IMG/VR virus record: IMGVR_UViG_3300033475_000094
Span: 1-37,430 of that record
Reading direction: 5' to 3' (one strand)
DNA length: 37,430 nucleotides
Origin: a virus
Lineage: Duplodnaviria > Caudoviricetes
Part shown: positions 1-37,430 of the stretch, piece after piece
Numbering within the stretch: the first letter of the stretch is position 1
Layout: every line of letters starts with the position of its first letter
Position numbers and translations under genes: made by a program
The notes under the pieces: model-generated
Database searches by the model: none
What the model saw: the letters and a program-made list of their open reading frames with translations, nothing else
Told to the model about the DNA's origin: nothing

Positions 1-1
1 T

Positions 2-2605
2 ATCAATGAACCCAGTATCAGCAGCAGTGTTTGCCGCTGGTGTTCTAAAGTCCACCATATCACGGAGGAAGTTCTTATTACCATTGCCGTCAATGTAAAC
101 AGGAATGCTCTTAGTATCGATGGCATTGTTGTTTGAAGAGTTAATATCATCAATTGGGTATGATTCAACAGTAAAGAATCCAGCACCAGGTGCGGTGTTT
201 ACTGAGAAATAATCAAGCTGAACGAGCAAGCAATTTGCTGAGATTGCAGTCTTCGGGTAAATATATGCTAGACTATAATTTGAATCTTGTTGACCTATAT
301 CCCAAACAAATGATGAAGTAAGGTCAGTACCATTTACTGTATAAGCACCATTTGATGTTCCCCAGACCTTACGTACTCTATGAACATCTGAGAATCCTAG
401 GCACCAAGGTCCATTTGGACCTCCAACATTGTTAGCAGTGTTAATGCAAACGAAACGACTCTTGTTGATCACCTTCTGGGCAGGAGATGCACTGGTTCTC
501 ATAACATCATAAGTCACTGAGCAAGATAGCGTAGAGACTGGTTTCTCGCCTGATGCAATGGTAAATGAGGTTGTATTAGTTACATTCACAAAACCTGTTT
601 TACCAATAGTGGCCTGTTGGAACGGAATAACCTTACCAGTAATATATGACTTCACATAAGTGTTGGCTACAATATTTGCAGCAAACGGGGCATCAACCGT
701 CATGAACGTATTGTTTGAAATTGAATTAACGGTACGAATCTGCGAATTGACTTTAATGCTTGCGCCAATATTGAAATCGGTTAGGAAGGTTGTGCCTGAA
801 CCCACAATAGCTGAATTAACAGTGTTTGATGCAACTGTACCAGACAGGTTTGCTGTATCAACATTTGCTGATGCAGTTAGGATAATGGAATATGCTTGGC
901 TGTCGCTTAGAATTCCTGTGCCATAAGGTAGAATATCAACACCACCAGGTTGTGATGCAGCTAGGGTAACAACTAGGTTACCTGTAGTACCCATGGTACC
1001 AGTCGCGGTTGTCCGATACACATATTCTGTGTTATTGTTATTGCTGGCATCACGGAGATATTTAATACCATTAGCACCAAAGGAATATAATTGGTCGTCA
1101 AACCCTGTGCCAATAATACCAGAGCTTACAATATCTCCAACACCTTTGTTAGTGCCATTGAAATAAACTGATTTAACTTGACCTGAATTATATCCATTTG
1201 CGATTTGGATATTGTAAACGTGGAGAATATATTGAGCAGTATTAGTACCAGGAACGCCATTGTTATATGAGAAACAACGAACCGCAGCATTTCCAATTAG
1301 CGTACCTGATGGCACTGCAGAAGCATAGGTGCGGTTCGTTACAGCACCTTGAACATTTGCATATAGAGATACTGGCGTTGAGGTATTGATGCTGAAGTTA
1401 CCAGCAACTTCCTGCAGAACGAAATAGCTGCCATAATTGAATGATATTTGTTGACTCTTATTAACCTGTGTATCAGTACCACGTCTTGTTTGGACATAAG
1501 CAGTCTTTAGCAGCTCAACACGGTAACCTTGGGCATAACCAAGACCTGGAGCAATACGGGTAAGATAATTGTTTGAGCTTAGATTCGCCACAATGGTATT
1601 GCCAGGAACATTAGTTACTGAGTCAACAGCAAACGGGTTGACAACATAATTACCAGCTTCATCATTAATATTCTGGGCAATCGCTGATTCAACGATAGAA
1701 TATAGATTTGATCCCGCTACCGCAGAAGAGATAATTGAGCCAAAATTGTATTGGACAATTGGATTGAATCCAGCAGTATTAGCCGCTATGGCTGGATCAA
1801 GAGCAATTAACCCCGGTTCGATCTTTAGACGATCAGCACCTGGTGCATTCTCGTTGCTATATCCAAGGGCATTATCAAGCAGACTTTGGTCTTGATTTGA
1901 GTTAATGATTGATTCAGATGCTATAAACCCTACTACTAGATTTGAAGCATATGTACCTGTCGCATTAACTACGCCAAATGTCGGATTAAGGACTTGCACT
2001 AGGCAGCCAGATAGGAATACGACACCCTCGCTAACAGAAATGCCGTGAGCATTACCCACAGAAGATGTGGTGCTGTTAGAAGGATATGCATTTACCATCG
2101 CAATGGTATCAGCAACATTGTTTCCAGTACGAGGAATCTTGTAGAATACAAGTTGATCAGTATTAGAGAATGTGGTTACCTGGTTTGAAGTAGCATTCGC
2201 ACCAGTGTTGATATATTTCAGGTAAACGACGTTTGTATTTGGGTATTGAGAGGCTTGTCCAGAGGTTCCATAGAGGACTCGTGCAGTTAGATTTGAGGTC
2301 GTTGAAACAACCTGGGTGTTGACTAAGCTCGCAATTGTATAGGCTGATCCATTTGATTGGAAATCAGAAAGACGAACGAAAGGAAGATTTGGGATATCAT
2401 TGATTGCACAGCCTGAAACAATATCACCATTACGAAGGTTAAGAGATGCCAGTTGCTCGATCTGATTCTGTAGCATTGATTGAACTTGGGTAAGTTCACG
2501 TGCTTGAACAGGTATAGACGGCTTGAACAGAATACGATAATATTGATTATTGGCGTCAAAATCATCGAAATACGGATTCACATTTAGGTCAGTTTTCTGT
2601 GGCAT
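2..2605 (-). CDS. DUF4815/VrlC-like large virion structural protein (3' end runs off the window; absent from ORF track)
   Basis: Manual translation from ATG 2605: MPQKTDLNVNPYFDDFDANNQYYRILFKPSIPVQARELTQVQSMLQNQIE, the typical DUF4815 N-terminus; AAGGA RBS; follows the gp8-like gene as in T4-like phages. Confidence 0.85.
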   Translation of the reverse strand, partial: MPQKTDLNVNPYFDDFDANNQYYRILFKPSIPVQARELTQVQSMLQNQIEQLASLNLRNGDIVSGCAINDIPNLPFVRLSDFQSNGSAYTIASLVNTQVVSTTSNLTARVLYGTSGQASQYPNTNVVYLKYINTGANATSNQVTTFSNTDQLVFYKIPRTGNNVADTIAMVNAYPSNSTTSSVGNAHGISVSEGVVFLSGCLVQVLNPTFGVVNATGTYASNLVVGFIASESIINSNQDQSLLDNALGYSNENAPGADRLKIEPGLIALDPAIAANTAGFNPIVQYNFGSIISSAVAGSNLYSIVESAIAQNINDEAGNYVVNPFAVDSVTNVPGNTIVANLSSNNYLTRIAPGLGYAQGYRVELLKTAYVQTRRGTDTQVNKSQQISFNYGSYFVLQEVAGNFSINTSTPVSLYANVQGAVTNRTYASAVPSGTLIGNAAVRCFSYNNGVPGTNTAQYILHVYNIQIANGYNSGQVKSVYFNGTNKGVGDIVSSGIIGTGFDDQLYSFGANGIKYLRDASNNNNTEYVYRTTATGTMGTTGNLVVTLAASQPGGVDILPYGTGILSDSQAYSIILTASANVDTANLSGTVASNTVNSAIVGSGTTFLTDFNIGASIKVNSQIRTVNSISNNTFMTVDAPFAANIVANTYVKSYITGKVIPFQQATIGKTGFVNVTNTTSFTIASGEKPVSTLSCSVTYDVMRTSASPAQKVINKSRFVCINTANNVGGPNGPWCLGFSDVHRVRKVWGTSNGAYTVNGTDLTSSFVWDIGQQDSNYSLAYIYPKTAISANCLLVQLDYFSVNTAPGAGFFTVESYPIDDINSSNNNAIDTKSIPVYIDGNGNKNFLRDMVDFRTPAANTAADTGFID

Positions 2606-2614
2606 TTAGCGTCC

Positions 2615-4153
2615 TTAGATCGTGATCACCAATTTAAATGATTCTGAGGTGTTCGCCGAACGGGTAATATTAGAAATGTTCTGGGCATACAACGGTTTTA
2701 GATTTTTCGTGTAAATTTGCCCAATTGTATTTATAGCAATGGTCGCAATGGTTCCATTAGATGAAGTTACGTTTTCTCCCCCTATAAAGTCAGTATCACC
2801 GGTTAGATACACATTAGTACCATTTGAAAACGCCACAGTTCCTCGAGCATTAGACGATTGTCCAATAAGTACGTCACCAACCACATAAGTTGTGGATGGG
2901 CTGATATTTGCTTGTAAAACCGCTGAATAGGTATTCACGGTGTATACATTTCCAGTAGTTCCATTCGCATTTAAGGTTAGAGGATTTACTAATAGACCAA
3001 TTTTATTATATTTGATATTGGTTGGTATTGAATTGCCCTCTGAATTCGCAAAGGTAAATGAAATTCCGATACCTCTAATGCGACACTCAGTAGATGGTTC
3101 ATATCCATGTCCCCCAGCAGGGGCAACAATCGCATAGGCATTTGCTTGAGTTGTTACAGTAGCTTGGTTTGATACGAAAGCTACATTTGCCCATGTAATA
3201 AATGATCCAGTATTAATAATCACCACTGATAGAATAGAGTTCGAAGTAGTGTTAATCGTTGTGTAGGCTGCTGGAATCGTATTACCGTCACAAGTAAATT
3301 TAACTCTTGGAGAAATCAAATATTTGGTAATTGATGGCAGAATATTTTGAGTATTCGCTGTGCCGTCAAGAGTTACGAAATTACCCGCAGCATTGGACAC
3401 ATATTTTGAAACACCAAATAACTGCGAGGTCGCAGCCTGGGTGTTATAAATGTAGATGCCGTTACCTACATAGAAATCATTAAATGTAGATTCATAATTC
3501 TGTACCTGGATCGTTGTAGCGTTGATGACACCAAGAACAAGATTATTATTTGATATTGAATATGATGAATATCCATTACCACCATTAGTGATTACAACAT
3601 TCTCAACACCCGCATAAGAAAAGGCGCTTGTTGATAGTGTTGTGTTAGTATAGACTGGCGCAAAGTCAGATGTATTGAATTTATTATATTCAGCATTTGT
3701 GATCGTGGAAATATACCTCCAGGTATATCCATCAGCCGTTGTGAATGAAGAAGGCTGAACTTGATTGGGTACTTGAGTTGATGGTGCTCCGTTTGCATTG
3801 TTAATGCATTTGAAGACATTATAAGAACCGCCCACAACTTGGGGCGGAGTAATCACATAAAAGTTGAGATTAGTTAGATCAACTGTATTATCGTATTGAT
3901 CATAGACTGTATTTGACGTCCATTGGACATTACGGATCATTGGAATTAAGTCACCAACACCCAACCTCTTTCCAAACAACATCTGCCAATTATTGATGAA
4001 ACCATTATATCCATCCAATGTTACAGGAGGAGTATTTCCAGTATATGGGACTGGATTTGAAGCAAACGCAAAGAGACATTGGGCATTCGTAGAAATGCCA
4101 CTGATCAAACTATCAACGATAGTCTTTCTAAAATTAGAGAGGATTGCTCCCAT
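2615..4153 (-). CDS. baseplate wedge protein, T4 gp8-like
   Basis: W-T-S-N-T-V-Y-D-Q-Y-D, NFYV, VFKCINN and TADGYTWRY motifs typical of gp8-like proteins; synteny. Confidence 0.8.
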   Translation of the reverse strand: MGAILSNFRKTIVDSLISGISTNAQCLFAFASNPVPYTGNTPPVTLDGYNGFINNWQMLFGKRLGVGDLIPMIRNVQWTSNTVYDQYDNTVDLTNLNFYVITPPQVVGGSYNVFKCINNANGAPSTQVPNQVQPSSFTTADGYTWRYISTITNAEYNKFNTSDFAPVYTNTTLSTSAFSYAGVENVVITNGGNGYSSYSISNNNLVLGVINATTIQVQNYESTFNDFYVGNGIYIYNTQAATSQLFGVSKYVSNAAGNFVTLDGTANTQNILPSITKYLISPRVKFTCDGNTIPAAYTTINTTSNSILSVVIINTGSFITWANVAFVSNQATVTTQANAYAIVAPAGGHGYEPSTECRIRGIGISFTFANSEGNSIPTNIKYNKIGLLVNPLTLNANGTTGNVYTVNTYSAVLQANISPSTTYVVGDVLIGQSSNARGTVAFSNGTNVYLTGDTDFIGGENVTSSNGTIATIAINTIGQIYTKNLKPLYAQNISNITRSANTSESFKLVITI

Positions 4154-4157
4154 TCAA

Positions 4158-4907
4158 TTATATTCCTAGTGCCGCCCAATATGCAGTTTGTGCAGTAGCG
4201 TTATTTGAAATAAGTGTAATAGTAGTTGAGTTTACTGACTGTACCGCAACGTGAGTTGCTGAATTGTTTGAAGTTGCAAATACCGCAAACGCATTGGTTA
4301 GGAATGCTGTACCAACAGTAGTTGAAAAGGTTGTGATCTGAGCAGTAGTATTAACCGTGGTCAGCGTTCCCCACATCAATTTTAAACCAGCAGGCATTGT
4401 CGCATAACCATTTGCTAGAGAAGCGGTATGGCCAGCAACGTTTGAGGTACCAAGGTTTAGAGTATTACCAGTTACTTGAACTGCTGAAGTGTTCGCAACG
4501 AAGAATGATGCAGTAGCATTACCGATATAGAGATTTGCCGCAGTGGATAAAATCGCTAGCGTAGAAGGCGTCATCACGATATTTGCGGTTGAATTGGCAA
4601 TTGTCTCGTAAACTGAGTTACCTGACATATTAGCAGTGGCGTTACCAGTTGACCATGAAGCTGCCGTGATGACAGTTTGGCCTGATGCGTTAGTAACAAT
4701 TAGGCTTGTTGAGTTAGCAGTAGAATTTACTGTGGAATTACCAGCAGTAAGGTTGTTTGCCAAAGCCACATTATTTGAAGCCAGAACAGGCGCAAAGGCG
4801 GCATAAAACTCCGAAAAGTTATTTTGAGTTTTGATAAATGCATTTCTTAGCGTATCACCAGTACCGTCGTTGGGTACTGTACCTACGTTAATGTTTTGTT
4901 GTGCCAT
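4158..4907 (-). CDS. baseplate/fibre protein with gp9/gp10-type N-terminus and tail-fibre-type C-terminal domain
   Basis: N-term INVGTVPNDGTGDTLRNAFIKTQNNFSEFY is the gp9/gp10 motif; C-term NGYATMPAGLKLMWG resembles tail-fibre tip domains. Confidence 0.7.
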   Translation of the reverse strand: MAQQNINVGTVPNDGTGDTLRNAFIKTQNNFSEFYAAFAPVLASNNVALANNLTAGNSTVNSTANSTSLIVTNASGQTVITAASWSTGNATANMSGNSVYETIANSTANIVMTPSTLAILSTAANLYIGNATASFFVANTSAVQVTGNTLNLGTSNVAGHTASLANGYATMPAGLKLMWGTLTTVNTTAQITTFSTTVGTAFLTNAFAVFATSNNSATHVAVQSVNSTTITLISNNATAQTAYWAALGI

Positions 4908-4924
4908 AGTGCTCTACGTTCCTC

Positions 4925-7249
4925 TTAGGTCTGGTCTACTGTCAGCAGTGCAGAATCACTTGTAACTGCGCTTGAATCCGCTGAGAATTGGGTATAAAGA
5001 ATTTCTTCGTCGATGGTATATTTAGCTGAATCAGCGTTAACAACCGACAGATCCGCTGTGAACCATAGCTGTACTGTTGGATCAGCAGTATTTGATTCAT
5101 ACGCAATAGTCAGAGGAGCGTCTTCAGCTGAAATGAGCTGGAATTCTCCAAAAAGCTCAGCACCCGCTGGATGGAATGTGTTATAAAGAATGTCTTTATA
5201 TTGTTCCAGTTGTGATGCTGCTTTAATTTGATATGAATAGTCTTGGTAAAAGAAGCTATCCTGGATATATTTATCCGAGTTTAGGAAGCCCTTCGTTGTG
5301 CTCCAATAACCCGGCGCCTTACCAACACCGCCTTTGATTACATGGGCGATAACTTGTGATGTAGTGTTGAATTGGACTAACGAACAAGTAAAGGAAGCAC
5401 CTGTGCCATTCTTGGATTGCACAGTTATTGTAGGGATTGAAGCAAGACCAGAACCTGCATATGTTATTGTGGTTGATGTAATAGTTCCATTTGCATCAGT
5501 TGTGACAAAACCAGTCGGTGTTGTACCATTACCACCTGAGAATACAAGAGCATCACCATTTGAATATCCTACACCGCCTGAGGTAATAACAGGATTCGAT
5601 ACCGCTGAATAGAGATAAAGTTCAACTGTTTCACCATCGACATAACCTTTACCTGAGTTGTAGATATCCACAGTACCGATGACTGAGTTGCCTGATGACG
5701 GAAATGCATCAACTAATGTGTTCAGACCATTTATTGATCCATCTGATGATACCATAAGAGGGTCTGGTGGTGTGAAATTCGCTGGGAAAATTGCAGGAGC
5801 CACATAGAATGCAGAAGTACCATTTGATGTATTGGTAGGCGGACCATACAAGGTAATTGATGTATCTGAATTGACCTGTTTTACTACCGCATATTCAATA
5901 CTGGTAGACAGGTTATTTGCTTGTAGAGCAATGTAACTATTGTTGGAAAAATACCAAGTGAAGTTAGTTCCTGATCCTGTTACAGTATTGGCAGCAGAGT
6001 TATAGTTCACACTACCAGGAAGAGCCAGAGAATTTTCAATTGACTCAACAAACGTATTTGCCACAACGGTATAACTGTTACCTGTCTGTATATTAGTTAG
6101 AGTAACAAGTGATCCGAAAGTATTGCTTGCCCACGATAGTGATGTACCAACATTTGATGTTAGATTGGCTACATTGTTAGCCGGTAAGTTGTATTGGCTG
6201 GCATTCAAGGTAGTCGTAAGATAATTTGCAATGACATCCGTATTGTACGTCACTGTTTGAGTATTAGAAATAGCACCAACGGCAAACGAAGCACCGGTTC
6301 CTGGCGTATTTCCATTACCTGGATATACTAATATTGTTGGGGATGAAGTAATACCAAATCCTGGCTTACGAACAGAGAAATTCAATGAACCGAACGCTTG
6401 GGTTAGGCTGCTAACACGAACAACGCCATTAATACCAAATGATACCACCGCATTATTGCTTAGATCATTGTGAACAATCGCTAGAATGTCACCAACATTA
6501 AACCCTTGACCGCCATTAACAATGCTAAGATCATTTAATGAGCCAGTGATGATTGGAGCCTTGCCGACAATATCAGCAAACATGGTTGATCCAAGAACAT
6601 CATGATCTACAATCTTCTCACCCTCGATGAATGCACCACCCTTTGGCTGCATATTTGAAATATACAGAGAAGCGACTAAGTTGTTGTTAATGGGTTCGGT
6701 AATATAGCTTTCAACAACCGCAGTGGTATTTGAGGATAACCCAATAATCGTTTTTCCTACGAAATTAGGCAGGAAATCTGTTTTCGTGACTTCAATATAT
6801 GTGGGTACAGTCCAAGTTCCATCACTGGGTGCAAGGAGGTCATTTCCAGGAAGATAGACATCGATGTCTTCATTATAGATGAGTTTGAAGAGCAGACGAT
6901 AACACTGAATTGATCCTTTGGATCTATATACATCCAAAATGTGCTTAAGCAGGAATCGTTTGTTAATAATGACATTGAATGGGATGCCATACAGATATTT
7001 TTTCTGGAAATGTTCCAGAAATGATTCAAGGGTGTTGTCAATATCTCTGTAATTTAGAAGATTACGAGATTGATATATGATGTTAGTTGAAGTTGCAACA
7101 TTATTTTCATATGTAGGACTATATGCCTGCTCAAGGAATTCATAATACGCCTGTACAAACAAAATGAAGTTCGGCCCCTCTGTCTTATAAAAGTCAGGAA
7201 ATTGAGAGGCAATGAACGGAGATATCTGTTTTTGGATATCAAATTGCAT
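4925..7249 (-). CDS. baseplate wedge initiator, gp7-like
   Basis: QFPDFY..FILFVQAYYEFLE, YRSKGS, KYIQDSFFYQDYSYQIK and HPAG motifs; directly downstream of gp6. Confidence 0.75.
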   Translation of the reverse strand: MQFDIQKQISPFIASQFPDFYKTEGPNFILFVQAYYEFLEQAYSPTYENNVATSTNIIYQSRNLLNYRDIDNTLESFLEHFQKKYLYGIPFNVIINKRFLLKHILDVYRSKGSIQCYRLLFKLIYNEDIDVYLPGNDLLAPSDGTWTVPTYIEVTKTDFLPNFVGKTIIGLSSNTTAVVESYITEPINNNLVASLYISNMQPKGGAFIEGEKIVDHDVLGSTMFADIVGKAPIITGSLNDLSIVNGGQGFNVGDILAIVHNDLSNNAVVSFGINGVVRVSSLTQAFGSLNFSVRKPGFGITSSPTILVYPGNGNTPGTGASFAVGAISNTQTVTYNTDVIANYLTTTLNASQYNLPANNVANLTSNVGTSLSWASNTFGSLVTLTNIQTGNSYTVVANTFVESIENSLALPGSVNYNSAANTVTGSGTNFTWYFSNNSYIALQANNLSTSIEYAVVKQVNSDTSITLYGPPTNTSNGTSAFYVAPAIFPANFTPPDPLMVSSDGSINGLNTLVDAFPSSGNSVIGTVDIYNSGKGYVDGETVELYLYSAVSNPVITSGGVGYSNGDALVFSGGNGTTPTGFVTTDANGTITSTTITYAGSGLASIPTITVQSKNGTGASFTCSLVQFNTTSQVIAHVIKGGVGKAPGYWSTTKGFLNSDKYIQDSFFYQDYSYQIKAASQLEQYKDILYNTFHPAGAELFGEFQLISAEDAPLTIAYESNTADPTVQLWFTADLSVVNADSAKYTIDEEILYTQFSADSSAVTSDSALLTVDQT

Positions 7250-9078
7250 TAGTTGAGCTTATTAATAACTGTTATTGAAATATCGTTTGAATCAATGATT
7301 AGAATCTTCGACAGATTGATTAGTATGTCAGGTGTTAGTGGTGTTAAATAAAGGCTAATGTAATTTCCGTAATCAGATGCAATGAGTTTATTAATGCTTA
7401 CGTCGCCTGTTGTGTAATTCACTGTACCGATAGCAGTATTAAGGATGGTGAATTGGTTGTTTATCAAAGTATACACAACCAAATTTCCCAGGCTGTCATC
7501 TCTTATGTATGACGCAGGCCATTGAACACCATTTGCATCTGTAAATGTAAATGGAGATGAAGTAACAACTGGATTACTGTCATATTTGTTGCCTTCATTT
7601 GTACCTGATGCACCTATCTCAATATCAGCAGCATTATTGAAACTAAATGCATATGAAGTAGCAAACCCAACAAAGGGTGAAAGTCGCTTGATAATTTGCA
7701 GATTGGTTTCATTTGAAGTGATTGATGTATCCGCATTGTCAATAGCAGATACGAATTTTGAAAATCTTAGATCACCATCAAACTTCTGAAGATTTGTTGA
7801 ACTATAATTGCTGATCGCAGTGACAACTAGCGATTTAATGTCATTTGCTAACAATGAGGTCGCTGTTTGGTCATATTGTACCGTTGAAGTAACACCACAA
7901 TATAGGTAGTCGGGATCCTGGATGATTAGGCGTGTTGGCAGCCCCATGTATTCAAGTAGGAAGTTAGAGATTTCAGCCTTTACGTAATCTGGCGCCACAG
8001 TGCCAGCTTGTGGTTGCAACACAGCAACAACTCGGCCGTATTTCTTCTCAGTTAGCAACTGACCGCCAAACGTATTAACATCCTTAATAACTCCACCGAA
8101 ATTATCTAGGATCAGTGCTGAATAGTCGTCAGATGCAAGAGCCCGTTCTTGTGTCGCAAAGTAACGAGGAGCACTGAAGCGGATTGATTCAATAGCTTCA
8201 GGTGGAGCCCCGCCCGCTGAATTTGAAGTTACTGTGACAGGACCAACAATGATACCAGCACCACCATTTGTATTGGATAGACCTGAAGTTAAAGTAAAGC
8301 TGGTAATACCGTCTGCCGTGTTGCCTGATGAAACACGGTAATTTGCCGTAACTAACGCCAGGTTATCAGGAAAACGACCAAAAAGGTTATCACCAAAAAT
8401 AAGCTCATATTGACCATTTTGTGCTGCCTGTAAGAAGTAAACTGTTGAATTTGAATTCAGATGGAATAGAGTGGACGCAAATGTGAAATTTGTATTCACT
8501 GCTGATTCTGTCACCGTAACAGTGAGTGAATTTAGATCAATATTTGGATTAGTTAGAACAAATTGCTGATTGTCATTGGTGTAATCCACGACGAATGTAT
8601 CAGTAATGTATACGCCTTCAAATAATTGAAGGTTAGTAATTGAGAAAATGTTATTGCCTGAGAAATAATTGGTCTGTTGTTGGGTGGTAAACGTGAACTG
8701 GCCGTTAGTGTTTACCCCAGTGAACAATGTTCCCTTTGGAATTATCAGAGGTGGCGTTAAACCAGTAGCAGTAATGTTGAATGCAATATTGGCGCTTGAA
8801 GAACGAGCTGATTGCGGTAGGTAATTAAGCTCTTTGGCATGTGAAACAACTGAATCCAGCTTTTGAGCTGAATCCAGGAACATCTCCGATGCGACCATGT
8901 TTAAATAAAAAGCATTCAGGTAGGAATTGTACGTTTGCACGTCGATTAGAACGTTCATGTTTGAATCAGTGAACGAATAATCTTTGAAGATTGTCTGAGT
9001 GCTTAAAAACTGGATATACGCTTGCTTTAACGTATCAAAGTCCAGCGATGTGATGGAGAGTGAGGTATTAGCGGCCAT
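7249..9078 (-). CDS. baseplate wedge subunit gp6
   Basis: LDFDTLK, FKDYSF, EMFLDSAQKLDSVVSHAKELNYLP, YELIFGD and FATQERA motifs of the T4 gp6 family. Confidence 0.92.
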   Translation of the reverse strand: MAANTSLSITSLDFDTLKQAYIQFLSTQTIFKDYSFTDSNMNVLIDVQTYNSYLNAFYLNMVASEMFLDSAQKLDSVVSHAKELNYLPQSARSSSANIAFNITATGLTPPLIIPKGTLFTGVNTNGQFTFTTQQQTNYFSGNNIFSITNLQLFEGVYITDTFVVDYTNDNQQFVLTNPNIDLNSLTVTVTESAVNTNFTFASTLFHLNSNSTVYFLQAAQNGQYELIFGDNLFGRFPDNLALVTANYRVSSGNTADGITSFTLTSGLSNTNGGAGIIVGPVTVTSNSAGGAPPEAIESIRFSAPRYFATQERALASDDYSALILDNFGGVIKDVNTFGGQLLTEKKYGRVVAVLQPQAGTVAPDYVKAEISNFLLEYMGLPTRLIIQDPDYLYCGVTSTVQYDQTATSLLANDIKSLVVTAISNYSSTNLQKFDGDLRFSKFVSAIDNADTSITSNETNLQIIKRLSPFVGFATSYAFSFNNAADIEIGASGTNEGNKYDSNPVVTSSPFTFTDANGVQWPASYIRDDSLGNLVVYTLINNQFTILNTAIGTVNYTTGDVSINKLIASDYGNYISLYLTPLTPDILINLSKILIIDSNDISITVINKLN

Positions 9079-9105
9079 TTCTTACCTGATTTGCTATCGA
9101 TCAGG

Positions 9106-9112
9106 TATTTAG
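9106..9112 (-). promoter_or_regulatory. T4-type late promoter (CTAAATA) for gp6
   Basis: CTGCTAAATACC occurs identically upstream of gp6 and gp25; resembles the T4 late TATAAATA box. Confidence 0.65.
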
Positions 9113-9128
9113 CAGAATTCTAGTCAAG

Positions 9129-9170
9129 AAAAAGCCGGTCGACTCCGGGGCTGACAGGTCGACCGGCTTT
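9129..9170 (-). terminator. intrinsic terminator of sRNA-B
   Basis: AAAGCCGGUCGAC..GUCGACCGGCUUUUU. Confidence 0.8.
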
Positions 9171-9238
9171 GTGCCACTACCAACAAAGGAGCCACCCCAC
9201 CGTTGGGGAGCCCGTTACCTACGTGGCGCTCGGTAACT
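9129..9238 (-). ncRNA. candidate trans-acting antisense sRNA (sRNA-B) with anti-leader/anti-SD seed
   Basis: Own promoter TTGACA-N12-CTGCTA (9241-9268), two 5' hairpins, unpaired CUCCUUUGUUGGUA, 13-bp terminator plus U-run; no plausible ORF. Confidence 0.7.
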
Positions 9239-9240
9239 AC

Positions 9241-9268
9241 ACAATAGCAGGTATACCATCCCTGTCAA
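9241..9268 (-). promoter_or_regulatory. early-type sigma70 promoter
   Basis: TTGACA-N12-CTGCTATTGT, same geometry as the early array. Confidence 0.75.
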
Positions 9269-9271
9269 GAT

Positions 9272-9382
9272 AAAAGCGGCTACAATCTCACAATGCAACC
9301 GCCTTTACCTCGAGAATATGTGTTTGAACGGTTCTGCACCATCTGGGCCTCGCGGCCTGATGGTTACTGCTTACATTCAGCC
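9272..9382 (-). ncRNA. candidate structured ncRNA (ncRNA-A)
   Basis: GTGCTACAAT -10 box, rod-like hairpin capped by a GGCC-GCGA-GGCC GNRA tetraloop, terminator GCGGUUGCA/UGUAGCCGC-UUUU. Confidence 0.45.
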
Positions 9383-9431
9383 TCTCCATTGTAGCACTGC
9401 AAACCGTTTGCAGCATCGATATCGTAGCAAA

Positions 9432-9857
9432 TTACCTAACACGTTTCAAGAGAATTGGTAAATTTATTACGTTGGGATTGTTCACAAGTTGAAAAACAAT
9501 GTTGACAGCAATGCCGTTATTATTAGGCGAGTCGAGCACAGTGAGATTAATGATGGTAATGCGTGGCTCAAACTGTCGAGCGCTAAGTGTTATTGCATTG
9601 CGAATGTCTTCTATGAGAAACGGTGTGTCGAGCTCAAACATAGATTGCACTACATTAGTGCCAAAGAAAGGCTGGAAAAAACGACCAAAAACTGCTGTAT
9701 AAACGAGATTCTTGAAAGCTTGTCGTACAGCATCTTCATTCTTCAATACGACGAGCTGATTTGTAATTGGATGCTTGACCAAATTGTTCGAGAAGTCAGA
9801 ATAGGTTTCTATCTTCTTCTGCGTTTGTGTTATAAGATCAGCGCGACTAATTGACAT
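9432..9857 (-). CDS. baseplate wedge subunit gp25
   Basis: YSDF..HPIT..KNEDAVRQAFKNLV..RFFQPFFG..FEPRI: gp25 family. Confidence 0.92.
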   Translation of the reverse strand: MSISRADLITQTQKKIETYSDFSNNLVKHPITNQLVVLKNEDAVRQAFKNLVYTAVFGRFFQPFFGTNVVQSMFELDTPFLIEDIRNAITLSARQFEPRITIINLTVLDSPNNNGIAVNIVFQLVNNPNVINLPILLKRVR

Positions 9858-21869: not shown

Positions 21870-22016
21870 TTGGGCGGTTCCTGTTTTGGGTAGTAAGGGG
21901 AAGCCTTTTGGACTTCCCCCTCCGGGCCCTGTAACGTCCCAGCTGTCACGTGTACCGTAGCATGGGCTGACGCAGAGTCAAACACTTTTTCAAATGAAGA
22001 TGTTGCAATGCACAAA

Positions 22017-24585: not shown

Positions 24586-24858
24586 TTACTCCTCGTCGTC
24601 CTCCAATTCTTCCTCGTCCTCGTCCTCCACTTGGGAACGCAGGGCCTCGATCGTATCCTCCATATTGGTGTTGTGCCCCACGTACATGTGGTCATCGTCC
24701 AGGGACATCACCAGGTGCCCGTACCAGTATGCACGAGCACGCTCGTATTCGCTTGTACCACGAACGATCTCCATGGCCTCCTGGGCCAGGTTCTTGATCT
24801 TGTTCTTGATCTCTTCCAGACGTTCAACGTCCGAAGCCTTTGGGATATTGTTGGGCAT
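24586..24858 (-). CDS. acidic-tailed hypothetical early protein
   Basis: Cassette promoter 24888-24915; leader AACAAACAAAGGAA. Confidence 0.8.
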   Translation of the reverse strand: MPNNIPKASDVERLEEIKNKIKNLAQEAMEIVRGTSEYERARAYWYGHLVMSLDDDHMYVGHNTNMEDTIEALRSQVEDEDEEELEDDEE

Positions 24859-24928
24859 TGGGTGTTCCTTTGTTTGTTAGTGCTGACACTGTAGCACAAA
24901 ACGGCACAGTGTCAAACACTTTTTCAAA

Positions 24929-25165: not shown

Positions 25166-25257
25166 TTGGGCTGTTCCTTTTGTTTGCTTAGTGTCGCCAC
25201 TGTAGCACGGGACGACACTAAGTCAAATAGTTTTTCAAATATTGGTGCTGCGGTGCA

Positions 25258-26942: not shown

Positions 26943-27042
26943 GGTGTAACTCCTTCTGTTGGTTGGTTGGATTTACGTCTCTGCTTACATTTCCGACTTT
27001 AGCACCTATTTGAGCAATGTCAAATAGTATTTCAAACTTTTT

Positions 27043-27705: not shown

Positions 27706-27845
27706 TGCTGCTCTCCTGTTGTTATGCTTCATTATGGCACGTATTTGAAAAATACGCAAGCCTTTTTTCAAATTATTTTTCAAACTTTTTTGTTGACATT
27801 ACTTCGTAACGTGCTATGCTGTTGGGACAACAAAGGAGAAGCCCA

Positions 27846-28055
27846 ATGTCCACATTTAGCGATGAGTTTGCGGAGAAGCTGTTCGAGGTATTCGACACAG
27901 CTAAGGAAGAAAAGGTTGCAGAGCTATACAAGCTCCTAGCGGACTATCGCAGCACCTATCCACGAAGCTATGCCAAGTTGAAGACAAAGCCCTTTAGCGG
28001 GGCTGTGATTATTGCTGTAGAGGAAGCCCACAATTATCTTAATGAGGTGGGTTGA
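27846..28055 (+). CDS. hypothetical early protein (MSTFSDEF...)
   Basis: + strand cassette promoter 27793-27820, ACAACAAAGGAG leader. Confidence 0.8.
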   Translation: MSTFSDEFAEKLFEVFDTAKEEKVAELYKLLADYRSTYPRSYAKLKTKPFSGAVIIAVEEAHNYLNEVG

Positions 28056-31143: not shown

Positions 31144-31304
31144 GCATTTCTCCTGTTGCAATATAGTAACAGAAGTCAAACAGATAGTCAAGGAATCAAA
31201 GAAAAGACCTGGGGCGGGTAGTGTCTCGCCAATCCCCAGGACGATTCCCGACCGTACACAGCGCTGACACTACTCAGCCTGTAATCTGACGTCTACCCAA
31301 GATC

Positions 31305-31368
31305 CGGTTCGCCGACGGGACTTGAACCCGCTTTTGCCGTGGGCCGTGTTCAATTACACTACGACGAG
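31305..31368 (-). pseudogene. tRNA-like RNA with collapsed anticodon arm
   Basis: Acceptor UCGUCG/CGGCGA, D-arm GUGU/ACAC, T-arm GCGGG-UUCAAGU-CCCGU, but anticodon arm only GCC-CAC-GGC. Confidence 0.6.
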
Positions 31369-31381
31369 TTGGGACCTTGTA

Positions 31382-33630: not shown

Positions 33631-33668
33631 GCGATTTCTCCATTGCTAGCGACAAACGTGTTATAAGG

Positions 33669-33740
33669 AGGGCCCACCGAGACTTGAACTCGGATCTTGG
33701 GATTAAAGGTCCCTTGTTCTACCTATTGAACTATAGGCCC
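33669..33740 (-). tRNA. tRNA-Lys(UUU) with atypical C33 and U73, CCA not encoded
   Basis: Cloverleaf: GGGCCUA/UGGGCCC, D-arm GUUC/GAAC, anticodon stem GGGA/UCCC with loop CCUUUAA, T-arm CCGAG-UUCAAGU-CUCGG. Confidence 0.8.
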
Positions 33741-34167: not shown

Positions 34168-34276
34168 TTGCCCTCCCATATAGAAGACCCGTCCGAGACT
34201 GGCGAGTCCCGAACGGGTCAATGCTGGCGGTGGGGTTTCCAGCGCCTGACACCAGCATGATCATAATAACAAACCG

Positions 34277-34483
34277 TTATGTGGTGTCAACAGTATTGGC
34301 ACCAGGAAACCATCGTGCAACAAGCTGAGCATCCGTCTCGCCTGGTTTAACAGGCCATTGATAATATAGACCAACACATTGCTTGCAATTGGCCCGTGGC
34401 TTAAAGAAAAAATTGCAAAAGGGATGATGTCGTTCCAACTCATGTGGCTGGAACAGTGGTGTACCATCTTCAGAATATATCAT
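34277..34483 (-). CDS. HH..CN..C..C motif protein
   Basis: RHHPFCNFFFKPRANCKQC, similar to 33723..33998; ATGA coupling. Confidence 0.6.
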   Translation of the reverse strand: MIYSEDGTPLFQPHELERHHPFCNFFFKPRANCKQCVGLYYQWPVKPGETDAQLVARWFPGANTVDTT

Positions 34484-35371: not shown

Positions 35372-35935
35372 TTAGTCTTCTTCGTCTTCCTTAGGAGTAT
35401 AGAACGACGGCCATTGCGCATCACCAGTTTCAAGATATGAGGCAAGTGCTTGGATCGCCTGTTCCTTTGTTATATCAGCACCATCAAACACCACACAATC
35501 GTAACGAGGATCATCCCATGGATAGAAAAGAAGATGTAGCTGATTCATAGAGTCGCTGGTTGCCTCTTCATCATAATACTCGCAATCTTCAAACAGATGC
35601 TTTTCATCCATAATATATTCAGCAGTACCACCGATGCAACAAACGGAGCCGCAATTTTCAGTATATGATCGGTAATTGCTATTTTCATCATAATAACCTC
35701 TATGATAAGTGTGATATCCCAGACTTTTTGCGGTTTGCTTTGCGACAATATCAGTCTTGAATGCAGTACTTTGCCACGTGCTCATGTTGAAAAAAATCTG
35801 GGCACCAAGCTTGTCATCAGGCACCATATAGGTATCTTCAATATGCACAATGGTTCCTGCCTTAAGGGCAGCAAGGGTCGCATGGAGACCCTTGTATTGT
35901 TTGTCGTTTAATCCAAGTTGTTCTTTAGTCAGCAT
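35372..35935 (-). CDS. Cys-motif paralog family member
   Basis: LGL..Q..LH.TLAALKAG, FNM..W, CGSVCCIGGTAE, LFYPW, AIQAL..YLETGD..WP. Confidence 0.85.
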   Translation of the reverse strand: MLTKEQLGLNDKQYKGLHATLAALKAGTIVHIEDTYMVPDDKLGAQIFFNMSTWQSTAFKTDIVAKQTAKSLGYHTYHRGYYDENSNYRSYTENCGSVCCIGGTAEYIMDEKHLFEDCEYYDEEATSDSMNQLHLLFYPWDDPRYDCVVFDGADITKEQAIQALASYLETGDAQWPSFYTPKEDEED

Positions 35936-36440
35936 TACGATAATCCTCAATCACTTGCGGCCAATTAGCATCGCCGGTTTCAAGATAGTTTGTGAGTGCC
36001 TGAATGGCATTAGGCAGTGTAAGTTCTACATCAACAGGACAGACGTCAAATCGTTGATCATTCCATGGATAAAAGAGATAATAAAGACGACGGTTTTTTG
36101 CGGCTACTTCACTCCGACCATAAGTGTTCGTAATATTCGGCTCGAATAGATTAGTGGTATTGGTGATATATTCGGCAGTACCACCGATGCAACAAACGGA
36201 GCCGCAATGTTTGTTGTCAGTATATGCATGCGTCTCTTCTCCATATTCCTCTTCTTTAGTGGAGAAGATGTCATCATTCCACGCCAACATGTTGAACATG
36301 AGAAGATTTGTCTCGTCGGTTTCAATAGGATCTTCCCATTCCTCAAGATGCTTAATTTTTCCTGCTTTCAGGGCAGCGAGTGTGCTGTGGAGAGCGCCGT
36401 ATTGCTGGTCACTCAGACCAAGTTCAGTTGCAGTTTTCAT
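35925..36440 (-). CDS. Cys-motif paralog family member
   Basis: Same motif series; start 36440 (or TTG 36455). Confidence 0.85.
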   Translation of the reverse strand: MKTATELGLSDQQYGALHSTLAALKAGKIKHLEEWEDPIETDETNLLMFNMLAWNDDIFSTKEEEYGEETHAYTDNKHCGSVCCIGGTAEYITNTTNLFEPNITNTYGRSEVAAKNRRLYYLFYPWNDQRFDVCPVDVELTLPNAIQALTNYLETGDANWPQVIEDYRNAD

Positions 36441-36445
36441 TTTAT

Positions 36446-36925
36446 TTAAATCCAATCAGATTTGCCAGCATATATGCTCGGCCATTGTGAATCGCCGGTT
36501 TCAAGATAATTTGTGAGTGCCTGAATGGCTTGCTCAAGTGTAATGCCATTACCATCAATGGTGTGATGATTGTCATCATATAACGGATGTTCCCATGGAA
36601 AAAAGAGATATCTTAAATTTTTGATTTTATCATTATCACCATGATAAAACCGAATATTTTCAAAGAGGGTTCTGCCAGCAATAAACTCAGCAGTACCGCC
36701 AATACAGCAGACCGAGCCACAATGATTATCGTAGTCTTCTCCACCGTAGATCGAATCGTTCCAGGAATCCATATTGAAGAACAATCTCTTAGGATCATCA
36801 GGCAGAATATCTGTATTAGCATTCTCATCTAGATGAACGATTGTGCCAGCCTTTAGTGCTGCAAGGGTGCTATGTAAAGCAGAGAATTGTTCGGCAGATA
36901 GGCCGAGCTCGTCAGCAGTTTTCAA
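36446..36925 (-). CDS. Cys-motif paralog family member
   Basis: Same motif series; GGAG before TTG start. Confidence 0.85.
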   Translation of the reverse strand: MKTADELGLSAEQFSALHSTLAALKAGTIVHLDENANTDILPDDPKRLFFNMDSWNDSIYGGEDYDNHCGSVCCIGGTAEFIAGRTLFENIRFYHGDNDKIKNLRYLFFPWEHPLYDDNHHTIDGNGITLEQAIQALTNYLETGDSQWPSIYAGKSDWI

Positions 36926-36970
36926 AACATTAACTCCAAAATATCTAAATTCAATATGGGTATTAGAACA

Positions 36971-36977
36971 TATTTAG
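36971..36977 (-). promoter_or_regulatory. possible late promoter (CTAAATA) for the paralog array
   Basis: Same core as upstream of gp6/gp25, just after a terminator. Confidence 0.45.
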
Positions 36978-36994
36978 TCAGGAATTTCAATAAT

Positions 36995-37136
36995 AAAAAA
37001 AGGGCCGCTCCCAAAGAAGCGGCCCAAGGCTAGGGAGGAAACGCCCAAGGAGGGTAACAGAAGATTACAAGAACAGACGTCCACAACAAACAAAGGACTA
37101 TGGGAACTTGTAACCAACCAGTACGTCCCAACGGAC
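36995..37136 (-). ncRNA. candidate trans-acting sRNA (sRNA-C) with anti-leader loop and several anti-SD motifs
   Basis: Promoter TTGACG-N17-TATATT (37143-37171), terminator GGGCCGCUUC/GGAGCGGCCC-U7, loop UCCUUUGUUUGUU, plus CCCUCCUU, UUCCUCCC and GUUCCC. Confidence 0.7.
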
Positions 37137-37167
37137 AATCGCAATATAGACGATTGGTGTTTGGGCG

Positions 37168-37359
37168 TCAATGCATATAAATGGCACAACCGAAGATAAT
37201 TCCCATTGCGATGATTGGACCCCAGGCCGCTAGTCTATACACATTCATTCGCATGTGATCCTCCTTTTTGTCATAGGAAACCCGCCACAGTCTGTCGGGA
37301 TCGAATCCATCGGATTCTCTGTGGCGGGTAGTTGCTATAAACCGGGCGATCCACAGCAA
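37168..37359 (-). CDS. small membrane protein (true start possibly at ATG 37254 after AAGGAGG)
   Basis: Hydrophobic C-terminal helix; strong RBS internal to the tracked ORF. Confidence 0.45.
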   Translation of the reverse strand: MLWIARFIATTRHRESDGFDPDRLWRVSYDKKEDHMRMNVYRLAAWGPIIAMGIIFGCAIYMH

Positions 37360-37430
37360 CTAAGAGGCATGTTAATAGATACAACTAATGGCGTCAAACA
37401 TAAAAAAGAGGCCGCTGGACTCGCGGCCAA

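What the first reader, a model, noticed from the sequence alone, without database searches (positions are those of the whole stretch)
36995..37171. sRNA-C: loop-displayed anti-leader seed plus multiple anti-SD motifs
About 140 nt between a canonical promoter and a U7 terminator. Stems GGUUACAAG/CUUGUAAUC and GUCC/GGAC expose a U/G loop. UCCUUUGUUUGUU matches the variant leader at 24866-24878 13/13, a leader that sRNA-B fits less well. GGUUGGUU and CUUCUGUU match parts of the 26950-26970 leader. CCCUCCUU, UUCCUCCC and GUUCCC resemble the anti-SD motifs of rhizobial AbcR-type sRNAs, so host mRNAs could also be targets (inference).
Basis: partly seen in the sequence, partly recalled or inferred. 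Interest (0 to 1): 0.75.

Follow-up and report, generated by a model that had tools for sequence, protein, structure and literature searches.

The report
Phage MmgR-type RNA with extra seed
A T4-like phage of alphaproteobacteria carries a copy of a known host small regulatory RNA (alpha-r8/MmgR family) with an enlarged front hairpin, and both of its exposed sequences mirror ribosome-binding sites of the phage's own early genes, so it likely damps those genes as well as host messages, though no transcript has been seen.

Summary
The element is real: a ~143-nt minus-strand unit (about 37137-36995) between a sigma70-type promoter and a U7 terminator, folding far better than shuffles (z -4.7). The 3' half is an alpha-r8/suhB/MmgR sRNA (Rfam RF00519, 64.8 bits, cut-off 41), not AbcR or cuckoo, and most resembles Bradyrhizobium copies. 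Unusual here: the family's ~30-nt 5' hairpin is replaced by a 71-nt one with an open U/G loop. The 13/13 match to the 24866-24878 leader holds (17 of 5000 shuffles). The 8-nt matches are chance-level, largely paired, and one is lost in a related strain. New: the alpha-r8 core also mirrors the SD-CCCAA-AUG stretch of 9 of 23 early genes (0 of 46 other genes), though these leaders are a repeat family and not independent. Best reading: a deregulated two-seed ribosome-site blocker acting on phage early mRNAs and host alpha-r8 targets. No homolog of the 5' domain was found, so covariation is untested. This scan has already found phage alpha-r8 copies and anti-leader RNAs many times on other DNA; only the fusion looks new.

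The parts
37143..37171 (-). sigma70/RpoD-type promoter-like site (TTGACG-17-TATATT); lacks the TTGTGCR heptamer found in host alpha-r8 promoters
   Evidence: heptamer in 73 of 79 host copies, absent here; its reading as the NtrC/AniA site is recalled and rests on PMC8401924 passages
36995..37137 (-). predicted ~143-nt sRNA (5' end inferred from the -10 box)
   Evidence: fold z -4.69
37055..37137 (-). 5' domain: small tetraloop hairpin plus a 71-nt interrupted hairpin standing where host copies have a ~30-nt hairpin
   Evidence: (z -3.49, 0 of 200 shuffles)
37083..37097 (-). U/G-rich loop seed UCCUUUGUUUGUUGU
36988..37062 (-). alpha-r8/suhB/MmgR domain, Rfam RF00519, full model 1-77
   Evidence: 64.8 bits, gathering score 41
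37032..37048 (-). alpha-r8 core UUGGGCG plus the family 10-mer UUUCCUCCCU (anti-SD seed)
   Evidence: 10-mer 0.90 unpaired in the 143-nt fold
36995..37025 (-). intrinsic terminator (10-bp stem, U7)
24862..24882 (-). best predicted target of the loop: leader and SD of the 90-aa early gene starting at 24858
   Evidence: (best of 62 start regions tested, -12.7 kcal/mol net)
21870..21882 (-). early-gene SD-spacer, 12 of 13 complementary to the alpha-r8 core; similar sites at 25166-25178 (-) and 27834-27846 (+), 11 of 13
37168..37265 (-). upstream gene for a 28-aa hydrophobic peptide with an AGGAGG SD; its stop codon overlaps the -35 box
   Evidence: no Pfam hit; not in the protein collection
37161..37168 (-). 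ACGCCCAA, an 8-nt complement of the alpha-r8 core; pairs with it in predicted read-through transcripts
   Evidence: P 0.78-0.94

Best explanation
The element is a phage copy of the alphaproteobacterial alpha-r8 (MmgR/SisA/SuhB) small-RNA gene with an enlarged 5' hairpin, and it likely works as a two-seed blocker of ribosome-binding sites that is predicted to damp a subset of the phage's own early mRNAs as well as the host's alpha-r8 targets. Shown: family identity, promoter and terminator motifs, fold, and the complementarities. Inferred: host RpoD transcribes it from the start of infection without the host's C/N control; host Hfq stabilises it; as it accumulates, the alpha-r8 core covers SD plus spacer (GGA..CCCAA-AUG) and the U/G loop covers the A/C-rich enhancer in front of the SD, best on the 24858 gene, whose variant leader the 9128-9236 RNA fits poorly. 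The result would be lower translation of early genes and of host transport and carbon-storage genes.
For: RF00519 at 64.8 bits over the full model. A 39-nt pattern from it hits 79 bacterial genome stretches, 62 titled Bradyrhizobium. Family members repress targets through this 10-mer at the SD, Hfq-dependently (PMC12559287 sections 7, 8). Loop: 13-nt match in 17 of 5000 shuffles; 5 of 19 leaders have 9 nt or more (p 0.012); best net interaction of 62 start regions; duplex mean -11.8 on 23 early vs -8.7 on 46 other starts, p 2e-4. Core: complement with up to 2 mismatches occurs 4 times besides itself, about 1.0 expected, 3 of them at early RBSs. CCCAA before ATG in 9 of 23 early vs 0 of 46 other genes; top-ranked spacer 5-mer; 2 of 806 RBSs in host DNA and other phage sets. 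Permuting the non-SD part of the core: 3 of 1000 do as well on early genes, 57 of 100 on 172 host starts. A related strain's 4 substitutions in the RNA all miss the firm stems, loop, core and terminator (chance 0.055). The same window holds a clearer anti-leader RNA at 9128-9236.
Against: No homolog of the 5' domain was found, so seed-target covariation is untested. Early leaders are a repeat family, so 9 of 23 may be one event; A/C-only spacers make CCCAA a fairly likely word (my estimate 1 in 30 to 1 in 250); and this test was found post hoc. The core permutation test is also marginal on the non-early genes (19 of 500). The loop's mean fit is compositional (77 of 600) and as good on three unrelated array phages (-12.3, -14.3, -13.0); the same leader word is common in unrelated phages. 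Most predicted net energies are modest (-4 to -11). Alpha-r8 copies are common in phages without such leaders, so own-gene targeting is not needed to explain carriage. RF00519: 0 of 5 named T4-like alphaproteobacterial phages and 0 of 106 other records tested over the cut-off, most of them fragments.
Confidence: 0.45

Rival explanations
1. It is only a host-mimic alpha-r8 sRNA, freed from nutrient control, that represses host transporter and PHB-related mRNAs. The 5' hairpin is a stabilising or Hfq-binding element, perhaps the relic of an inverted early leader, and phage mRNAs are not real targets.
For: Core identical to host copies. About 130 viral stretches carry the exact 19-nt core. Host promoter heptamer absent. 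On the + strand the loop reads as leader, SD and a too-close ATG, as in unrelated phage RBSs. Loop fit mostly compositional.
Against: The 13-mer lies in the open loop and covers the SD (17 of 5000); CCCAA enrichment at early starts; loop unchanged in the related strain while flanking interior loops changed.
Confidence: 0.3
2. The alpha-r8 domain is mainly the 3' UTR lock of the upstream 28-aa membrane-peptide mRNA (about 37362-36995): it would fold back on the peptide's SD and the -35 flank and keep the peptide untranslated, as in type I toxin mRNAs (analogy recalled), until a sponge RNA frees it.
For: A terminator and a second promoter-like site lie upstream (37428-37410, 37397-37369). In the 368-nt fold the peptide SD is 0.14 unpaired and the core pairs with ACGCCCAA at P 0.79. 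That upstream complement is in 0 of 108 viral and 1 of 76 host copies.
Against: Any strong SD pairs with an anti-SD seed. TTGACGC(C) also begins the promoters at 37397 and 33203, so only 3-4 further letters are unexplained. The peptide has no family hit or record. Post hoc.
Confidence: 0.1
3. The direction is reversed: the abundant early mRNAs sense or sponge alpha-r8 RNA, host and phage copies alike, tying early-gene output to the host's nutritional state.
For: Host and phage cores are identical over the pairing region; alpha-r8 RNAs are nutrient-regulated and are sponged by CrfA in Caulobacter (PMC12559287, PMC8401924 passages); CCCAA enrichment.
Against: A phage that wanted to read or drain host alpha-r8 would gain little from its own deregulated copy. 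No direct test.
Confidence: 0.08
4. The region is the 71-aa ORF 36974-37189, or merely a terminator with no regulatory RNA.
For: The frame is open. Alpha-r8 elements often sit at terminators in phages.
Against: TTG start upstream of the promoter, no clear SD, runs through the terminator. No PHROG or Pfam hit; not in the 15-billion protein collection while 3 of 3 early proteins looked up are. In the related strain 2 of 3 changed codons alter the residue (my reading). A full-length RF00519 match is more than a terminator.
Confidence: 0.05
5. It is an AbcR/ar15 or cuckoo-type sRNA.
For: CU-rich anti-SD motifs; ar15 has partial homology to SuhB (PMC7143759 passages).
Against: RF02345: no match at E up to 10; RF02344: one 4.3-bit hit elsewhere (no control genome passed either cut-off, so sensitivity is not shown). 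RF00519 fits fully.
Confidence: 0.02

Closest known systems
alpha-r8 sRNA family, Rfam RF00519 suhB: MmgR (Sinorhizobium meliloti), SisA-D (Caulobacter crescentus), SuhB (Sphingopyxis granuli)
   Same: Full-model match, invariant 10-mer, terminator, own promoter; core identical to Bradyrhizobium chromosomal copies over 38 of 39 nt.
   Different: Encoded by a T4-like phage; about 143 nt against 77 nt for MmgR; 71-nt 5' hairpin with a U/G loop against a median 30-31 nt; host promoter heptamer absent; no amidohydrolase gene beside it; predicted phage targets.
GcvB R1 seed (enterobacteria)
   Same: A G/U-rich single strand pairing with ACA-rich translation enhancers just upstream of the SD (PMC3879156 abstract); the loop would work this way.
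   Different: No Rfam match; different host group; analogy of mechanism only.
C4 antisense RNA of phages P1/P7 (RF01695)
   Same: Phage trans-acting RNA that blocks a ribosome-binding site of the phage's own gene (recalled; my paper search returned nothing).
   Different: No match; temperate immunity switch with few targets; not host-derived.
PreS (lambda) and VpdS (VP882), Hfq-dependent phage sRNAs
   Same: Phage-encoded base-pairing sRNAs that act on host, and for VpdS also phage, mRNAs (abstract of 10.1101/2024.10.31.621285; part 1 of 6 of PMC12197685).
   Different: From temperate phages, not copies of a host sRNA family, no early-leader seed described in what I read.

Membership tests
alpha-r8/suhB (RF00519) | Covariance-model score above gathering threshold over the full model | tested here: met
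   64.8 bits vs 41, model 1-77
alpha-r8/suhB (RF00519) | Single-stranded 10-mer UUUCCUCCCU | tested here: met
   37041-37032; 0.90 unpaired in the 143-nt fold; feature from PMC12559287 section 7
alpha-r8/suhB (RF00519) | Weak hairpin just upstream of the 10-mer | tested here: inconclusive
   CCC/GGG pairs in the model alignment with one non-standard pair; the MFE prefers another weak helix and the centroid none
alpha-r8/suhB (RF00519) | Rho-independent terminator | tested here: met
alpha-r8/suhB (RF00519) | Transcribed as a discrete RNA, Hfq-dependent base pairing | not testable with these tools
   promoter motif only
MmgR/SisA orthologue subgroup | Next to an N-formylglutamate amidohydrolase gene | tested here: not met
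   flanked by a 28-aa peptide gene and a 159-aa phage ORF without family hit
MmgR/SisA orthologue subgroup | Regulatory motif between -35 and -10 (NtrC/AniA) | tested here: not met
   TTGTGCR in 73 of 79 host copies, absent here; the motif's letters are recalled
AbcR/ar15 (RF02345) | Covariance-model match | tested here: not met
   0 matches at E up to 10; no positive control
ar14/cuckoo (RF02344) | Covariance-model match; repeated hairpins each with an anti-SD loop | tested here: not met
   fold
C4 antisense RNA (RF01695) | Covariance-model match | tested here: not met
   no positive control
GcvB (works-like only) | Accessible G/U seed complementary to ACA-rich sequence upstream of the SD | tested here: met
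   loop 0.96 unpaired; early vs other starts p 2e-4; no GcvB Rfam hit, so not a member

The most novel reading that the evidence does not exclude
A lytic T4-like phage captured the host's master carbon-status sRNA, grafted a second seed onto it, and shaped its early ribosome-binding sites to match the host seed.
Probability: 0.15. Interest if true: 0.85.

Novelty: new variant of a known kind. Interest (0 to 1): 0.5.

Why it matters
It would be a case of a phage extending a host sRNA into a two-seed regulator that points at both host and phage mRNAs. It would also give a host-RNA-based way to time the shut-off of repeated early-gene cassettes in T4-like phages of rhizobia. I found no paper on phage-borne alpha-r8 RNAs or on phage sRNAs aimed at shared early leaders, but the library lacks most subscription journals, including the 2016 alpha-r8 phylogeny paper. 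The claim is cheap to test with reporters, without the phage.

Tried and rejected
Searches for relatives of the whole RNA or its 5' domain. Loop-plus-10-mer pattern in viral contigs: 69 hits, none an alpha-r8 RNA with this loop. 29-nt exact pattern in metagenome contigs: only the window's own contig, L268. Promoter-long-gap-core pattern: 2 hits, neither with a long 5' hairpin. Loop hairpin pattern: 26 hits, none with promoter or alpha-r8 core, many the reverse strand of ordinary RBSs. Neighbouring 159-aa protein: no relative in viral contigs; 6 proteins, 3 of them on the window-length contig. Three other window proteins: no match in named phages. RF00519 in 50 of the 79 baseplate-related records plus 6 more, 9 of 10 promoter-pattern records and 41 of 54 others: none over the cut-off. 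Baseplate protein in 50 of 119 alpha-r8-bearing viral records: 0 (no positive control). No RNA holder listed among sequencing runs. X1 and X2 are one study, so the strain variant is a single observation; the other runs laid showed only alpha-r8-like short pieces or other parts of the stretch. Rejected: AbcR/cuckoo/C4 membership, the 71-aa ORF, the 26950-26970 matches, and the 26-aa + strand mini-ORF (SD 2 nt from ATG, no + strand promoter). One search had three start coordinates wrong and one; the corrected figures are those.

Full report
Context. The window is a linear virus record, about 23% complete. Positions 1-9857 hold T4-type baseplate genes, and the best named relatives of the 867-aa protein are Caulobacter phage Cr30, Rhizobium phage RHph_I1_18, Ochrobactrum phage vB_OspM_OC and the phiM12 group, at 30-36% identity. 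The middle of the window is an array of small genes behind repeated TTGAC-N14-TGCTA promoters with A/C-rich leaders (23 such promoters). Calling them early genes is inference from host-type promoters.

Observation. On the minus strand there is a promoter-like site at 37171-37143 and a terminator at 37025-36995. The 145-nt stretch folds at -51.4 kcal/mol, z -4.69, 0 of 200 shuffles as good; the 5' part alone gives z -3.49. The 13/13 match to 24878-24866 is exact. Against 19 promoter-proximal leaders, 17 of 5000 shuffles of the 5' domain reach 13 nt; against the whole window 329 of 5000. Matches of 8 nt or more occur in 3519 of 5000, so the two 8-nt matches to the 26950-26970 leader mean nothing alone; they are also largely paired.

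Identity. Rfam gives RF00519 suhB/MmgR at 36988-37062, 64.8 bits against a cut-off of 41, model positions 1-77. The ar15, ar14 and C4 models give nothing here (without positive controls). A 39-nt pattern from the 3' half hits 79 bacterial genome stretches, 62 titled Bradyrhizobium and most others Xanthobacteraceae or unnamed alphaproteobacteria. This hints at the donor and host group but is biased by sampling. Host copies have a short 5' hairpin before the core. Measured the same way, its median span is 30 nt in 31 of 38 distinct host copies, none 55 or more, and 31 nt in 82 of 110 viral copies; here it is 71 nt. Fifteen viral copies also gave spans of 55 or more in that crude fold, which can include upstream terminators, but none of the 110 has this U/G word. 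The TTGTGCR heptamer is in 73 of 79 host promoters and not here; MmgR control by NtrC and AniA through a motif between -35 and -10 is from PMC8401924 passages, the heptamer's letters from memory.

Distribution. The exact 19-nt core is in about 130 viral stretches (119 fetched). Of 72 with an upstream ORF tested, 27 follow a NusG-domain gene and 4 a capsid gene; two Bradyrhizobium temperate phages have it ahead of HNH and terminase genes. So a phage alpha-r8 copy is common, and this scan has noted it at least eight times. It was not found in 5 named T4-like alphaproteobacterial phages nor over the cut-off in 106 other records, mostly fragments. No homolog of the 5' domain was found. One related strain covers 36849-37430 with 7 differences, 6 listed; 4 lie in the RNA, at 37058, 37074, 37075 and 37102. 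All miss positions paired at P above 0.8 (chance 0.055), and the fold is kept. Loop, core, promoter and terminator are unchanged.

Targets, loop. With accessibility included, the loop on the 24858 leader is the best of 62 start regions (-12.7 kcal/mol). Its mean duplex energy is -11.8 on 23 early starts and -8.7 on 46 others (p 2e-4). Against specificity: 77 of 600 composition-kept permutations do as well, and leaders of three unrelated array phages pair at -12.3, -14.3 and -13.0, two others at -8.7 and -9.9. The loop is thus a GcvB-like U/G seed for A/C-rich enhancers (PMC3879156 abstract) with one specific long match. The RNA at 9128-9236 is a much clearer anti-leader RNA (8 of 19 leaders at 9 nt or more, 0 of 2000 shuffles) and fits the 24858 leader poorly, which would suit a division of labour.

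Targets, alpha-r8 core. The complement of the core, AGGAAACGCCCAA, occurs with up to 2 mismatches 4 times besides itself (about 1.0 expected); 3 are the SD-spacers of early genes. CCCAA at the start codon is in 9 of 23 early and 0 of 46 other genes, is the top spacer 5-mer, and is not explained by spacer composition (0 of 20000 permutations). A uniform RBS caller gave 7 of 50 here and 2 of 806 in 400 kb of Bradyrhizobium DNA and eight other phage sets. Permuting the non-SD part of the core, 3 of 1000 do as well on early starts, 19 of 500 on other window genes and 57 of 100 on 172 host starts; five other array phages gave 14 to 134 of 200. These leaders are a repeat family, so this may be a single coincidence, and the test was post hoc.

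Upstream unit. A terminator and a second promoter-like site precede a structured leader and a 28-aa hydrophobic peptide gene whose stop overlaps the -35 box. In read-through folds the core pairs with ACGCCCAA beside the -35 box (P 0.78-0.94) and the peptide's SD is closed (0.14 unpaired), while the loop stays open. This complement is in 0 of 108 viral and 1 of 76 host copies, but part of it is the promoter's own TTGACGC. I keep it as a rival. The 71-aa ORF has no family hit and was not called in the protein collection.

Mechanism and verdict. Alpha-r8 RNAs repress many mRNAs through the 10-mer at the SD with Hfq, and CrfA sponges them under carbon starvation (PMC12559287: abstract, sections 7 and 8, first part of the discussion, passages); SuhB represses phbB and a TonB receptor fusion (10.64898/2025.12.09.693200: abstract and passages); the family was defined in PMC1273637 (passages); AbcR features are from PMC7143759 (passages). 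I read no supplements; the target alignments there could show whether the UUGGG part pairs in natural targets. I commit to a deregulated, two-seed RBS blocker acting on some phage early mRNAs and on host alpha-r8 targets (0.45). Family membership is about 0.95 sure; own-gene targeting about even or less. New variant of a known kind; interest 0.5.

Noticed in passing
window 9128-9268 (-): Promoter-to-terminator unit with a 14-nt perfect complement of the canonical early leader TACCAACAAAGGAG; 8 of 19 leaders match at 9 nt or more, 0 of 2000 shuffles. Stronger anti-leader candidate than this finding; also in L120.
   Followed up: partly
window 23467 (-), 28052 (+), 28555 (+), 21981 (-), 28691 (-): Several early-type promoters drive no ORF but a short repeated motif ending in ..CCCGGAG..CCCTGA; 28691 (-) converges on 28555 (+). 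Possible family of small RNAs; no Rfam hit.
   Followed up: no
window 37168-37397 (-): Self-contained unit: promoter-like site, long GC-rich hairpin at about 37329-37282, strong SD, 28-aa hydrophobic peptide.
   Followed up: partly
window 34180-34290 (-): Strong promoter followed by a two-hairpin structured RNA ahead of a small ORF; only a sub-threshold Rhizobiales-2 hit.
   Followed up: no
window 31200-31380 (-): Degenerate tRNA-like stretch (read by eye, not called by ARAGORN) followed by another structured U-tailed region.
   Followed up: no
window 33667-33740 (-): tRNA-Lys(TTT); its anticodon loop has C where U33 is usual (alignment).
   Followed up: no
window 35372-36925 (-): Three tandem paralogous ORFs; in the related strain a contig joins the first to the second paralog, suggesting recombination within the array.
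   Followed up: partly
L001-L080, L280, L281: Alpha-r8 cores in phage contigs often sit behind a NusG-domain gene (27 of 72 tested) and ahead of HNH/terminase genes, the place of a late-operon terminator; also noted earlier by this scan.
   Followed up: partly
L282 (PP395640.1 42319-42402): A record named Microcystis phage Mwe-JY08 carries an alpha-r8 RNA at 62.8 bits, which suggests an alphaproteobacterial host.
   Followed up: no
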